Assembly (NCBI GenBank): GCA_964016885.1
Contig: OZ024743.1
Span: forward strand, 278,318,001 to 278,382,000
Source: Eledone cirrhosa
Lineage: Eukaryota
Length of the DNA stretch: 64,000 bases
Direction: 5' to 3'
Position 1 is the first letter of the stretch; each line of letters starts with the position of its first letter. This document shows positions 3,012 to 62,782 of this stretch, one piece after another. Both the position numbers and the translations under genes were made by a program. The notes under the pieces are model-generated. The model was not told the origin of the DNA. It ran no database searches and worked only from the letters and a program-made list of their open reading frames with translations.

Positions 3012-3196
3012 GGAAGTGTGGTAAGTAACCAGGTGGACCATAACGCACCAAAGTACTCGATACTGGGTAGTAGCGTGGGTAATAGGAAAAGAGTCAGGAC
3101 CCCGACGACTGAGCTCCGGACGTTTCGACAGCTGAGTTCAGACCTAGCTGTCGAAACGGCCGGAGCTCAGCCGTCGGAGTCCTGACTCTTTTCCTA
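3012..3196 (-). mobile_element. Family C hairpin mini-element (diverged copy)
   Basis: Homologous to the 3' end of the 60117-62541 element; internal palindrome. Confidence 0.8.
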
Positions 3197-3210
3197 TATA
3201 TATATATAGT

Positions 3211-3250
3211 CTGAGCTGAAGATCCGCTATGGTGAAACAATTGTTCTCGG
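3211..3250 (+). ncRNA. Type I minimal hammerhead ribozyme motif in a ~72-bp cassette between TA arrays
   Basis: ctgag-CTGAAGA-tccgctatggt-GAAA-caattg-TT-ctcgg. Confidence 0.7.
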
Positions 3251-4171
3251 TATGGTGAACTAACTATTGTGTTACTACTTATATATATATATATATATAT
3301 ATATATATATATATATATATATATATATATATATATATATATATATATATATATATATATATATATATATATATGGATATATATTCACGAATACATTGAC
3401 CAACAGTTAAAACTATAAATATAATTTCTCAAAGAGTAAAAAACTATACATATATATATATGGATGTGAATCGAAATTGTAGCTGCCATATAGCAGGGAC
3501 GAATCGAGTTGCTATATATATATATATATATATATACAGTATTTACGTATCGAGAGAGAGAAAAAAAGGGGAGGATAGGTGATACATAGGAGCACCTTTG
3601 GCATTGCCAAGTAGCGTATGCGAAAGGTGCTCGATACTAGTGCCGGCAGTATTAAATATTCGAAGTGTTAATGTTTAGTGGGCTAGAGAGTTAGGAGAGC
3701 GTAAGCACGTGGGAAAGTAAGAAATCGGAGAATAGACCGTTAAAACATGTTTATTTAAAACACCACCTACGTACGTTTCGCCCAGTTGGGCTTCTCAAGG
3801 GCATAAATAATCATAAGTGTTCCTTATATTGCTCGGAAAGAGTTTTTGGGGTTAAATCTACGTCAAGGTTCATTGCTCACAAAAATAGCTTGTTTTGATT
3901 TTGCAGCAGGTCAAGGGAGGTAACTCTAGCCTGTGTTAGGGCAGTCTTTTCCGGACAATTTTTTTATCCGCTACGAGATGAGGTTACAGCCTTACCATTG
4001 TCGATACGCATGTAATCAACGCTTATTTTGAGAGGGTTTTTTTGCCGCATCTGTTTGTCTGAGTCGTTTGAGGCTGGGTCTGGTATGCAAGGATAGTTTC
4101 CTGGGTGTTATTTTGCAGCGCCTGCCCGCCGGGATGTTAAGACTTGTTGCAGGGAGATCCGGTGCACGGTT

Positions 4172-4765
4172 TCACTCCTCATCCTTAACCCATCTGAAAA
4201 AGGATATTTTTAAGCGATGTGTACAACTTATCGCTGTTTCAGCTCTGCTGTTGATGAGCTCGTGGGGTGCAGTTATGATGTGGTATAGCTCCATGAGGCA
4301 AAGATCGCATTTCCTCTTGAAGTTGTACGATGCAGCCCTGTCGACAATATCCCAGTGCGTGGAGAAGCTGATGTTTAAGTCCTTTAGTGATGTGATGTAG
4401 TCCGCGAGCGAAGTGGAGTGTCTTAGTTTTTTATTTGTGAAAGAGTGGAGATGTGTTCGAAACCTAAATTTGAACGAGCCGGAGGTAGCCCCTATATAAT
4501 TTTTAACGCTATTGTGGCTAGTTATAGTGCATCTATATATAACCCTATCAGTCAAGCAGTATCCTCTAAGGGGGAAGCGCTCTCTGTCGCGGCAGTTGCA
4601 ATTTCTGTCGCGGTTCCGTCTATTTCGCACGGTAAGGATATCATTGTTGCTGCCTACGTTGTTACCTACGCTCCCGCAGCTGTCGTTAGCACCATTACAA
4701 CCCACAACACGCGGGGTGGTGCGATTGTTATTCCGCACGTCATGTCCTGCATGTTCCCCAGTCAT
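4172..4765 (-). CDS. GIY-YIG endonuclease domain of a Penelope-like element (C-terminal fragment, RT missing)
   Basis: CNC..PL.G.C linker, VIY..YIG, RF..H, STSL, CDLCLME, INSRAE..SC.HR motifs. Confidence 0.88.
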   Translation of the reverse strand: MTGEHAGHDVRNNNRTTPRVVGCNGANDSCGSVGNNVGSNNDILTVRNRRNRDRNCNCRDRERFPLRGYCLTDRVIYRCTITSHNSVKNYIGATSGSFKFRFRTHLHSFTNKKLRHSTSLADYITSLKDLNISFSTHWDIVDRAASYNFKRKCDLCLMELYHIITAPHELINSRAETAISCTHRLKISFFRWVKDEE

Positions 4766-5352
4766 TTCGCGGTTATGCTGGTTGCGTCTGCGGATGCCGT
4801 TGCCAACACTATTGGATGCTGCCAGGGAGTTGTTAAGGCCGATATAGTTATTGTCAGGTGTAGGTGCGTCTGTGTCGAGGTGCTGTGTCTTGGTGATCTT
4901 ACTCTAGTAAGATCACCAAGACACTCCACTTCGCTCGCGGACTACATCACATCACTAAAGGACTTAAACATCAGCTTCTCCACGCACTGGGATATTGACG
5001 GCAGGACTGCACCGTACAACTTCAAGAGAAAATGCGATCTTTGCCTCATGGAGCTCTACCATAACTGCACCCCCACGAGCTCATCAACAGCAGAGCTGAA
5101 ACAGCGATAGGTTGTACACATCGCTTAAAAATATCCTTCTTCAGATGGGTTAAGGATGAGGAGTGAAACCGTGCACCGGATCTCCCTGCAACAAGTCTTA
5201 ACACCCCGGCGGGCAGGCGCTGCAAAATAACACCCAGGAAACTATCCTTGCATACCAGACCCAGCCTCAAACGACTCAGACAAACAGATGCGGCTGAAAA
5301 AACTTTCAAAAACTCTTTCCGAGCAATGTAAGGAACACTTTTGATTATGTAT

Positions 5353-5392
5353 GCCCTTGAGAAGCCCAACTGGGCGAAACGTACGTAGGTGC
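5353..5392 (+). ncRNA. Hammerhead motif with U3-A8 core (mirror copy 3764-3802, - strand)
   Basis: gccc-TTGAGAA-gccc aact gggc-GAAA-cgtacg-TA-ggtgc. Confidence 0.7.
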
Positions 5393-59990: not shown

Positions 59991-61495
59991 GATAAGTAGA
60001 TATAAGTGAAGAGGAATACATAACAGAATTGAAGGCGGAGATAAATAAGTAGCAGTTATTTGCAACACGTTTCCCTTACTATATATATATATATATATAT
60101 ATATATATATATATATAACGAAGGAAATGTGGTAAGGAACCAGGTGGACCATAACGCACCAAAGTACTCAATACTTAGGGTAGTAGAGTGGGTAATAGGA
60201 ACAAGTAGGACCCCGACGGCTAATTCTGTACTGAATGAAAAATTAATTCTGGTATTTAAATAGCCGAACTTATCAAGGGGTAATTCCATATATGGTCAAA
60301 GAGATAATCACCAGGATTGGTCACATCACAAGTTAGTAGTAAATCTGTGATGGCAAGTTGGTGGGGGAAGGGGTAGCTAAACTTGCCAGTAGGAGAAAAG
60401 GGGAGAGGGGTGGAGTAGACCCATTCATGCGTTGGTAGTGCCAGCTACAGCTGGGTGTGAGGTCAAAGAGGATACTGGGGAGGGGGAGGGGGAGGAGGTC
60501 GAAACGGTAAGTAGAACAATGAAAGGTAAAGCTGTAAAAGGTACTGAGAGAGAAAAAAAATATAAGCAAAATCTGGTTACTAAGACTTAAGTCTCTCGCT
60601 ATTGCTAGGCTGAAGAAATACATAAATAAATAAATAAACAAATAAGTGAATAAAAGAATAGATAAATAAATTTTAAAAAAAATATATATATATATATAAT
60701 GGAGAATAAAAAAATAGTTGATAATAATAGAACAAAAATAGGTGGGACGGAAATAAAGGGACCCTTATACGAGGTATAAGTGCGTGTATCGTACGGTGAC
60801 GGGTCAACAAAAGGGGGGCCAGAATACTAAAGAGACTACCACGAACATAATAAAGGTTTCTACCCCAAACACAGGGCCTGCAACCACCCAGTGCAAGAAA
60901 GTAAACTAGTACGAGAATATAATTCAGGGTCCCGCAAACAAATACTGGTGCTAACTCTAAGGGTACCGCCACGAAACAAAAGGTCTTATACAAGCTACAT
61001 GAAAGATCGTACGAAGTAAAAGTAAAGAACGGAAAATTAATACAGGAACACTCCCACCCCCCACCCCACCCCACCCCACCCACCCCCAAAAAGGGAAAAA
61101 GAAAAAAACAGATACTGGATAAACGAGAAATTAAAGCAAAGAAGCCACTAAGAAATATAGAAGGCACGGAAAAAGGGGACAACGGTCGGAGAAGGGGGCG
61201 AGTATCCGAAGTCTAACACCTCTGCTATAAAAAGCGGAGTCAGCCACATCTATCATAGAATAGGGGAGGAGGTGGGGGTGCTGAAGCTACAAGGGACCGA
61301 TGGGCTACCTTGGGTGGGCGAGAAAGAGACGACGACAAAGAAAGGGAACTGGGGTAGAAGGACTAGGGAGGGATGGGGGGAAAGGAGGAAATATAGAGGA
61401 AGCGATAAAAGAATGTAAAAGAAGATCTTACGTCTCCATAGGCAAGCAGGGGTTACCCATTACAAAATAGGCAAGTGGGGTGTTGTAACCCTAGG

Positions 61496-62130
61496 CTACC
61501 CCCCCCCCCCCCCCCCCGGGTCATTATGGGGTTTGAGGGCGAGGTAAGTCCTACGTAATCGGTGTTTACATGCAGTAACCAGTTCATCTTTCTTGTTTAG
61601 GAGTTGGTCCGTCGAAAACAACATTTGTAATGTTTCCTCCGAGCATAAATTGCACGGACGGCGTCCTCCCGTGTAAGAGTTGGCTCTGGACAGTAATTTC
61701 CAAGTGAGATCATAGTTGATGTTGTTGTCCTTGAGGTCCCATATATGGCCCGAAAGTGTAGTGGCGTGACGCCGGGCCGGGTTTCGGAGGGTATGTCTGT
61801 GTTGGTATAGCCGGGTCTTGAAGTCGCATGCGGTTAATCCTATATAAGCTTTGTTGGAGGTGTCCGTGCTCACGTTGCACTGGTAGATCACATTACGGTC
61901 TCTGCATCTGTTGTCGAGGGGGCAACTGGATCTATCAGGACAGTTGCACCTCCTGGTCGGCTCTCCACTGCTATTTAGGTTGTTTCTTCCATTGGGGTTG
62001 AGTTTTTTGTTGTTGGAGGAGACGATGTTTTGTGAGAAGTTAGGTGTAGTGCTGTAAGAGAGTTTGATGGTATTTTTGTTAATTATGTTGTGGTAGCGGT
62101 GTTGTGGTGGGAAATGTTTTTCAAAAGAAA
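61496..62130 (-). CDS. Penelope linker plus GIY-YIG endonuclease, 5'-truncated
   Basis: EKHFP..HRYH.I.NKNTIKLSYS...CNCPDRSSCPLDNRC..VIYQC..YIGLT..FKTRLYQH..TTLS..CNLCSEE..LLNKKDEL..CKHR. Confidence 0.9.
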
Positions 62131-62433
62131 ATTTTAACCAGATTTTGCTTATATTTTTTTTCTCTCTCAGTACCTTTTACAGCTTTACCTTTCATTGTTC
62201 TACTTACCGTTTCGACCTCCTCCTCCTCCCCCTCCCCAGTATCCTCTTTGACCTCACACCCAGCTGTAGCTGGCACTACCAACGCATGAATGGGTCTACT
62301 CCACCCCCTCTCCCCTTTTCTCCTACTGGCAAGTTTAACTACCCCTTCCCCCACCAACTTGCCATCACAGATTTACTACTAACTTGTGATGTGACCAATC
62401 CTGGTGATTATCTCTTTGACCATATATGGAATT

Positions 62434-62528
62434 ACCCCTTGATAAGTTCGGCTATTTAAATACCAGAATTAATTTTTCATTCAGTACAGAATTAGCCGTC
62501 GAGACGGCTTGAGCTCAGCCGTCGGGGT
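62434..62528 (+). ncRNA. Type I hammerhead motif, U3-A8 core, long loop II
   Basis: acccc-TTGATAA-gttcggcta...tagccgtc-GAGA (GAAA in most siblings)-cggcttgagctcagccg-TC-ggggt. Confidence 0.72.
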
Positions 62529-62579
62529 CCTACTTGTTCCTATATATATATATATATATATATATATATATATATATAT

Positions 62580-62782
62580 GAACCAGTAAGACCCCGACGG
62601 CTGAGCTCAAGCCGTTTCGACGTCTAATTCTGGACGGTAATTCAGTCCAGAATTAGCCGTCGAAACGGCTTGAGCTCAGCCGTCGGGGTGTTACTGGTTC
62701 CTATTACCCACTCTGCTACCCTAAGTATTGAGTACTTTGGTGGGTTATGGTCCACCTGGTTCCTTACCACATTTCCTTCGTT
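62580..62782 (+). mobile_element. Family C hairpin mini-element
   Basis: Palindrome plus tail. Confidence 0.9.

What the first reader, a model, noticed from the sequence alone, without database searches (positions are those of the whole stretch)
3012..62782. Recurrent ~190-bp hairpin elements that fold back inside a hammerhead ribozyme, with the parent element in the same window
Seen: eight ~175-205 bp copies (3012, 17090, 25830, 26840, 32605, 34087, 34489, 62580), plus collapsed and tail-only copies, almost all inside (TA)n. Each is an ~80-nt tail followed by a palindrome matching the 3' end of the GIY-YIG element at 60117-62541. In that parent the sequence is a hammerhead; the palindrome apexes map to loop II just upstream of the stem II 3' strand, but differ between copies (ggactgaa, ggacagaa, ggacaagagtcc, ggacggtaattcagtcc). 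Known: Penelope-like elements carry hammerheads and inverted pseudo-LTRs. Inference: reverse transcription stalls at ribozyme stem II and the cDNA self-primes, making MITE-like hairpins independently each time; alternatively the hairpin itself retrotransposes.
Basis: partly seen in the sequence, partly recalled or inferred. Interest (0 to 1): 0.85.

Follow-up and report, generated by a model that had tools for sequence, protein, structure and literature searches.

The report
Penelope run-off hairpins record RNA ends
These ~190-bp hairpins, present in over ten thousand copies, are the shortest head-to-head insertions of a Penelope-like retrotransposon, and their fold-back points pile up at two exact bases that likely mark the capped start of the element's RNA and the cut made by its ribozyme, giving a testable record of how these elements likely copy themselves.

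Summary
The eight hairpins are real. At least 11,823 exact-core copies exist genome-wide. They are the shortest class of insertion of a Hydra-like Penelope element (3,531-bp unit, 717-aa RT+GIY-YIG). The typical insertion, long or short, is two arms joined 5'-to-5' in (TA)n, one ending at unit base 3453 and one 78 nt later (the tail). Of 92 young tailed arms, 79 begin at 3389-3420, with a sharp wall at A3393 in hammerhead loop II. A non-templated G precedes that base in 12 of 16 unambiguous cases, the signature expected of a copied cap. A second class (403 matches) folds at the predicted ribozyme cut, without G excess. Either arm can be the longer, and both share one haplotype. Best model: two cDNAs are primed at two internal sites on one RNA, run off its 5' end, and are end-joined. 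A circular or multimeric RNA likely templates the long copies. Stalling at stem II with snap-back is not supported, and the window's 'parent' is a truncated sibling. No RNA data were available, so the cap and in vivo cleavage are inferred.

The parts
3012..3197 (-). mini hairpin insertion, diverged subfamily; one arm stops at the A equivalent to 3393 with an extra base matching the cap signature; tail end clipped
5488..5565 (-). collapsed mini: tailless stub joined to tail, likely a deletion between short direct repeats
17089..17282 (+). mini hairpin insertion (arms from unit ~3393 and ~3399)
25830..26005 (-). asymmetric mini: tailless arm from ~3394, tailed arm from ~3414
26838..27031 (+). 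mini hairpin insertion (3394/3397)
31459..31524 (+). tailless arm from 3393 joined to a 7-nt inverted tail stub
32605..32806 (-). mini hairpin; tailless arm starts G+A3393, with a short junction insertion
34087..34279 (-). mini hairpin insertion
34489..34682 (-). mini hairpin insertion (3394/3397)
60117..62135 (-). tailed arm of a long 5'-truncated insertion (unit ~1630-3531), including the tail at 60117-60194 and a ribozyme copy with a 23-bp deletion
61520..62152 (-). C-terminal GIY-YIG remnant, 92% identical to residues 505-715 of the intact 717-aa ORF; Pfam GIY-YIG only below cut-off (E 0.01)
62135..62543 (+). tailless inverted arm of the same insertion (unit ~3080-3453)
62434..62529 (+). 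type I hammerhead-shaped motif: U3/A8 core 62439-62445; inferred transcription start at 62483 (=unit 3393); predicted cut between 62523 and 62524 (=3433/3434)
   Evidence: positions inferred
62580..62782 (+). mini hairpin insertion next to the long sibling, with a junction insertion

Best explanation
The hairpins are the shortest two-armed insertions of a Hydra-like Penelope retrotransposon, likely made when its reverse transcriptase primes two cDNAs from both sides of a cut in (TA)n at two internal sites near the 5' end of one RNA, likely runs both off that RNA's end, and the two cDNA ends are then likely joined head to head. Shown: the two fixed arm ends (unit 3453 and 3531), a wall at A3393 with an extra G, a second wall at G3434, symmetric arm lengths, one haplotype per insertion, and junctions with 0-2-nt microhomology or short insertions. 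Inferred: A3393 (minor A3398) is the capped Pol II start inside ribozyme loop II, so a capped RNA gives the ~190-200-bp minis. G3434 is the 5'-OH end left by hammerhead cleavage and gives ~115-120-bp micro-hairpins. More weakly inferred: long and tandem copies come from a template with no 5' end there, most simply a ribozyme-made circular monomer. Whether the RT itself (template jump) or host end-joining makes the joint is open.
For: Intact 3,531-bp tandem unit and 717-aa ORF. Tailless arms end at 3453 in 64 of 69. Of 92 young tailed arms, 79 start at 3389-3420 (peak 3393: 14) and 13 are longer; partner arms also peak at 3393 (14 of 69). In 464 kb around the window only 3 of 28 clusters (2 insertions) pass upstream of loop II. 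The base before 3393 is G in 12 of 16 unambiguous arms versus 6 of 28 at other positions, A3398 set aside (Fisher p 0.001); before A3398 it is G in 6 of 7. Genome-wide, G-AGTMC 5,781 versus A-AGTMC 959. Single-armed copies read (TA)n-G-A3393 (L232, L325, L337). Micro-hairpins: 403 matches; of the 50 listed, 30 have both arms at the predicted cut, 7 one arm, 12 an arm passing it, 1 neither (hand count). All 18 distinct loci inspected are whole insertions carrying the tail, 17 of them in (TA)n. The cap-like base appears in only 6 of 42 arms there (p 2e-5). Run-off-and-jump products into ORF positions +64 to +219. Arms share haplotype variants in all 10 of 11 long insertions with informative variants in both arms, and none pairs two different haplotypes; in 38 hairpins, 156 shared variants versus 36 in shuffles. 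The Anolis PLE in vitro cleaves and extends both strands, starts RT at two internal sites, and gives shorter products when the RNA 5' end is trimmed (PMC11167929). The PLE start site lies in the pLTR (PMC2377424). A 5' G is read as a reverse-transcribed cap in L1/SVA (PMC2912911).
Against: No RNA evidence for the start, the cap, cleavage or circles. Part of the genome-wide G excess can come from the partner arm's own G, so only the 12 of 16 count is clean. The core is non-canonical: A8 in 100 of 100 arms (the search pattern allowed only A there), C3 with A8 in 7. The subfamily with mostly C3/A8 or damaged cores still yields micro-hairpins, so cleavage may be in trans or poorly explained. The G-run at the cut could bias deletions of palindromes. 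Arms that pass 3393 show no retained cap base (G 6, A 9), so a strong-stop-like jump is unsupported and the circle rests on elimination. The Anolis study found no reads ending at its ribozyme cut, and cleavage was not needed in vitro. The 92-arm sample is one young subfamily from the first 76 Mb of one chromosome, and its anchor excludes arms starting after 3423.
Confidence: 0.7

Rival explanations
1. One cDNA stops (at stem II, or at the RNA end) and snaps back on itself; the second arm is a DNA copy of the first, trimmed at 3453 by the endonuclease.
For: Arms share one haplotype and usually stop in the same class (both short, both at the cut, or both long). Junctions show 1-2-nt microhomology.
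Against: No arm-length bias (28:23, p 0.58; 18 equal). Tailless arms can be hundreds of nt longer than the tailed arm (L003, L020, L082). Both arms can carry the extra G (L254, L259, L271). The wall is about 10 nt past the stem II strand, which RT would already have displaced.
Confidence: 0.1
2. The hairpin is a self-propagating non-autonomous element (MITE- or SINE-like) whose apex erodes after insertion.
For: Very high copy number; some identical apexes recur; collapsed copies show that palindromes do erode.
Against: Apexes carry non-templated and templated insertions, not just deletions. Recurrent apexes coincide with microhomologies. The main mini subfamilies have matching long elements (not checked for the 3012 type). 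Run-off arms jump into the ORF start, which minis lack.
Confidence: 0.08
3. The walls are real but are not a cap and a ribozyme cut: for example a protein-made RNA or DNA cut in loop II, an RT pause, or preferred deletion ends at the G-run.
For: The ribozyme core is degenerate and folding z-scores are weak. No RNA data.
Against: G is added at two pyrimidine-A positions but not at 3434. The second wall falls exactly 3' of the GUC triplet. A second, 36%-identical PLE remnant in the window keeps the same U3/A8 core, and U3-A8 hammerheads are natural and active (PMC3088659).
Confidence: 0.1
4. Assembly or library fold-back artefact.
For: Public contigs gave only weak direct support for the joints (one strand-switch joint in 2 contigs of X1).
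Against: Arms differ by age-related substitutions, end at two fixed sites, follow subfamily structure, and long insertions share the anatomy.
Confidence: 0.02

Closest known systems
Hydra clade of C-terminal EN+ Penelope-like elements (Craig et al. 2021, PMC8557442)
   Same: RT then GIY-YIG, DKT motif, CxCX5C linker, CxxC/CxH around E and N, (TA)n targeting, hammerhead in the pLTR, inverted 5'-truncated arm, tail at one end.
   Different: 3.5 kb rather than <3 kb; RWR for RWK; 78-nt tail; A8 (mostly U3-A8) ribozyme with a long loop II. Its ribozyme differs from that listed for Hydra-1_Obim. No mini class is described in the sections and passages read.
Poseidon_Ac (Anolis) in vitro mechanism (Frangieh et al. 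2024, PMC11167929)
   Same: Two internal RT start sites bounding the tail, both target strands extended, AT-rich target, product length set by the RNA 5' end.
   Different: That paper's scenario leaves the later steps open, and a word search found no discussion of inverted insertions or circles. It found no in vivo sign of ribozyme cleavage; here the genome records a wall at the predicted cut.
L1 twin priming (as described in PMC2912911)
   Same: Two cDNAs primed from both target ends on one RNA, joined by microhomology; extra G read as a copied cap.
   Different: L1 inverts non-overlapping segments at variable sites; here both primings are at fixed sites and copy the same stretch, making a palindrome.
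Non-LTR retrozymes (bioRxiv 10.64898/2026.07.22.740005; circular-template proposal in PMC4209133)
   Same: Short non-coding PLE derivatives. A 299-bp x7 array with a full ribozyme core (L381) fits this class.
   Different: The minis are inverted monomers, lack the ribozyme's 5' half, and appear to be dead-end products.
MITEs (recalled)
   Same: Short, palindromic, very numerous.
   Different: Asymmetric tail, variable apex, retroelement origin, no DNA-transposon termini.

Membership tests
EN+ Penelope-like elements | single ORF with RT and C-terminal GIY-YIG | tested here: met
   717-aa ORF with YRDD and a GIY-YIG-type C-terminus read by eye. Pfam found nothing for the whole protein and only a sub-threshold GIY-YIG hit for the window fragment. 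2,049 homologues among 8,000 scored, nearly all unnamed.
EN+ Penelope-like elements | partial tandems (pLTR), inverted 5'-truncated copy, tail at one end | tested here: met
EN+ Penelope-like elements | RT phylogeny sister to telomerase | not tested
   no named reference set available for a tree
Hydra clade | DKT motif; CxCX5C linker; CxxC and CxH flanking conserved E and N | tested here: met
   motifs read against the description
Hydra clade | RWK motif | tested here: inconclusive
   RWR at the likely position
Hydra clade | (TA)n insertion | tested here: met
Hydra clade | generally <3 kb and canonical hammerhead | tested here: not met
   3,531 bp; U3/A8 core. Filed as Hydra-like only; tree placement not done.
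Type I hammerhead ribozyme | three stems around the core, GAAA, A15-U16 pair, H17 | tested here: met
   three-way fold; GAAA in 98 of 100 arms; position 7 free to vary (the pattern fixed G5, A6 and A8)
Type I hammerhead ribozyme | C3-G8 pair (or U3-A8 covariant) | tested here: inconclusive
   U3-A8 in 92 of 100 arms, C3/A8 mismatch in 7; no Rfam match
Type I hammerhead ribozyme | self-cleavage | not testable with these tools
   indirect only: arm wall at the predicted cut
MITE | fixed termini and apex inherited from a master; DNA transposase partner | tested here: not met
   variable junctions, retroelement partner
Non-LTR retrozyme | tandem units each with a complete hammerhead | tested here: not met
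   minis are inverted and lack the core; met only by the side finding L381

The most novel reading that the evidence does not exclude
Penelope-like elements integrate by obligate twin priming on one RNA, and the RNA's state decides the product. A capped linear RNA, whose start splits the hammerhead inside loop II, gives dead-end ~190-bp hairpins. A ribozyme-cut linear RNA gives ~115-bp hairpins. Only the ribozyme-circularised monomer gives full-length tandem/inverted copies, and mis-jumps give birth to retrozymes. The hairpins would be genomic evidence of in vivo PLE ribozyme cleavage (none found in the papers read) and one explanation for tails, inverted pLTRs and tandems.
Probability: 0.4. 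Interest if true: 0.88.

Novelty: new variant of a known kind. Interest (0 to 1): 0.72.

Why it matters
How PLEs form tandem and inverted structures, and whether their hammerheads act in vivo, are stated as open in PMC8557442 (section 15), PMC4209133 (discussion) and PMC11167929. Here thousands of young insertions give base-exact predictions for the transcription start, the ribozyme cut and the two RT start sites, all directly testable. The process also scatters tens of thousands or more near-perfect 60-bp hairpins (7 clusters in 200 kb of evenly spaced samples; roughly 10^5 if extrapolated), a possible dsRNA source for editing or small RNAs (speculative). Such repeats would be mislabelled as MITEs by annotation pipelines.

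Tried and rejected
Rfam: no hammerhead match in 62300-62545; the whole-window scan listed only sub-threshold microsatellite/miRNA noise among the 150 of 388 rows shown. Pfam and PDB found nothing for the 717-aa ORF. Sequencing runs: no RNA holder listed. Laid contigs of four runs were fragmentary across the palindrome and may include the source sample; not used as support. A retained cap base in arms passing 3393 was looked for and not found (6 G versus 9 A of 15). Full-length copies beginning at the cap were looked for: among arms running into the ORF start, 169 have templated T and 31 another base (27 C, nearly all templated; 4 G), and none of the 4 G cases is a full unit starting there. Ribozyme-cut RNA as the main template was rejected: tail-anchored counts are 4,954 versus 4,840. 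A splice-acceptor reading of loop II was rejected because the wall lies before the AG, not after it. Earlier scan notes: none. Ten literature searches listed no description of such minis. Repbase and Dfam could not be searched, subscription papers are missing, and the bioRxiv supplement is closed. The host was not identified; 'octopus' in two searches was my guess.
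Full report
OBSERVATION. The 62580 hairpin folds far beyond shuffles. The window lies in a 3.0-Gb genome with 11,823 exact hairpin cores (reversed control 0) and 35,301 matches to a 24-nt arm word. Twenty evenly spaced 10-kb pieces held 7 clusters. 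The 464 kb around the window held 28, of which 3 (2 insertions) extend upstream of loop II.

THE AUTONOMOUS ELEMENT. A protein search with the window's GIY-YIG remnant found many near-identical copies (150 scored of 74,250 candidates). One locus is a perfect head-to-tail array of a 3,531-bp unit with a 717-aa RT+GIY-YIG ORF; unit coordinates below refer to it. Its motifs match the Hydra clade description (DKT, CxCX5C, CxxC/CxH, (TA)n; PMC8557442 section 11), but its length and ribozyme core do not, and no tree was made, so I call it Hydra-like. Most of the 18 long loci fetched show arms joined 5'-to-5', typically one ending at 3453 and one at 3531. This is the known 'inverted copy plus tail at one end' (PMC8557442 passages; PMC3846280 parts 1-3 of 5). 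The window's 60117-62543 element is such an insertion, without RT: a sibling of the minis, not their source. Long elements with the loop II and stem variants seen in minis exist for several subfamilies.

FIRST WALL. I took 92 young tailed arms from among the first 92 of 100 listed places of an anchor pattern with 4,840 matches. Of these, 79 start at 3389-3420 and 13 are longer. Starts peak at A3393 (14 tailed arms; 14 of 69 partner arms), with a smear downstream. Partner arms end at 3453 in 64 of 69. Junctions are 18 blunt, 29 with microhomology (25 of 1-2 nt) and 22 with insertions, several copied from nearby arm sequence. Where the base before 3393 cannot come from the other arm it is G in 12 of 16, against 6 of 28 elsewhere (A3398 set aside; p 0.001; one search used a mistyped denominator). 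Before A3398 it is G in 6 of 7. Genome-wide G outnumbers A 5,781 to 959, though part of that excess can come from the partner arm. Both sites are pyrimidine-A, as expected of Pol II starts (recalled). A 5' G is read as a copied cap for L1/SVA (PMC2912911 passages), and Penelope's start lies in its pLTR (PMC2377424 section 15 and passages). I infer a capped start inside loop II.

THE TEMPLATE. L264, L325, L335, L337, L352 and L368 contain an arm that ran to about 3390-3396 and then continued from unit +64 to +219; in L325, L335 and L337 a G+A3393 start is seen. The template therefore likely carries the ORF start and ends at 3393, which points to the autonomous transcript rather than a hairpin RNA.

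SECOND WALL. The pLTR folds as a type I hammerhead shape (z-scores weak). GAAA is present in 98 of 100 distinct arms, position 7 is variable, A8 is present in all (fixed by the pattern), and position 3 is U in 92 and C in 7. U3-A8 covariation is natural and active (PMC3088659 passage). A second PLE remnant in the window has the same core. Rfam does not recognise it. The predicted cut is 3433/3434. A pattern for very short hairpins gave 403 matches. By hand count of the 50 listed: 21 have both arms at 3434 with an insertion, 9 are blunt there, 7 have one arm there and the other shorter, 12 have an arm passing it, and 1 has neither. The 18 distinct loci inspected are whole tailed insertions. The cap-like base is rare here (6 of 42; p 2e-5), as expected for a 5'-OH end. 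Against this reading: a subfamily with mostly C3/A8 cores also yields these copies, a G-run could bias deletions, and the Anolis study saw no reads ending at its cut.

TWO cDNAs, ONE RNA. The tailed arm reaches further in 28 pairs, the tailless in 23, and 18 are equal (p 0.58). In L003, L020 and L082 the tailless arm is far longer. Snap-back from the tailed cDNA cannot give that, and snap-back from the tailless one cannot supply the tail. Yet the arms share haplotypes. In 11 young long insertions spanning several haplotypes, none pairs two different ones, and private variants run through both arms and tandem units. In 38 hairpins (overlapping loci only partly de-duplicated) shared variants were 156 versus 36 in shuffles; gene conversion could add to this. 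This fits the Anolis biochemistry: both strands extended, two internal RT starts, a predicted dimer, and product length set by the RNA 5' end (PMC11167929 parts 1-2 of 4 and passages).

LONG COPIES. Among arms continuing into the ORF start, 169 have the templated T before 3393 and 31 another base; none of the 4 G cases is a full unit starting at the cap. No cap base is retained in pass-through arms. Long copies therefore seem to come from a template continuous across 3393. A ribozyme-made circle, proposed in PMC4209133 (discussion), is simplest; read-through multimers or a trimmed jump remain possible (about even odds).

NOVELTY. The architecture and the two RT starts are known. A dominant run-off hairpin class, a cap-type wall inside loop II and a wall at the ribozyme cut did not appear in ten searches of the open-access library. 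Other papers seen: the retrozyme preprint (part 1 of 5 and passages; supplement closed), PMC7151607 and PMC5625713 (passages), and the PMC8557442 supplement (look-ups). Repbase, Dfam and subscription papers were not searchable.

VERDICT. A real feature and a new variant of a known kind. Mechanism confidence 0.7, interest 0.72. No RNA data were available; the cap, cleavage and circle are inferences from DNA.

Noticed in passing
window 3710-5445: A second, divergent PLE insertion (GIY-YIG 36% identical) with the same inverted two-arm anatomy and a compact hammerhead with the same UUGAGAA core near 3798-3776 (- strand).
   Followed up: partly
window 7977-8624: Third, decayed GIY-YIG PLE remnant (34% identical).
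   Followed up: no
window 48950-55122: Fragments of a non-LTR retrotransposon with APE endonuclease and RT (Pfam) and an upstream ORF1-like frame.
   Followed up: no
L381:791-3023: 299-bp x7 array containing the whole ribozyme core, with loop II shortened by a joint landing at A3393: looks like a newborn retrozyme.
   Followed up: partly
L327-L331; L352: 274-bp and 257-bp tandem arrays made of the pLTR 3' part plus ORF start; the 274-bp array shows alternating variants between units.
   Followed up: partly
L146-L148: In the full-length array one variant alternates unit by unit (2 of 4), as a two-unit template or a later duplication would give.
   Followed up: no
L384:7170-9978: More than 50 tandem copies of a 55-bp piece (unit ~1616-1673) at the junction of a long insertion.
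   Followed up: no
window 62543-62580; also L017, L154, L156: Minis often sit within a short TA tract of another family member, suggesting repeated targeting of the same tracts.
   Followed up: no
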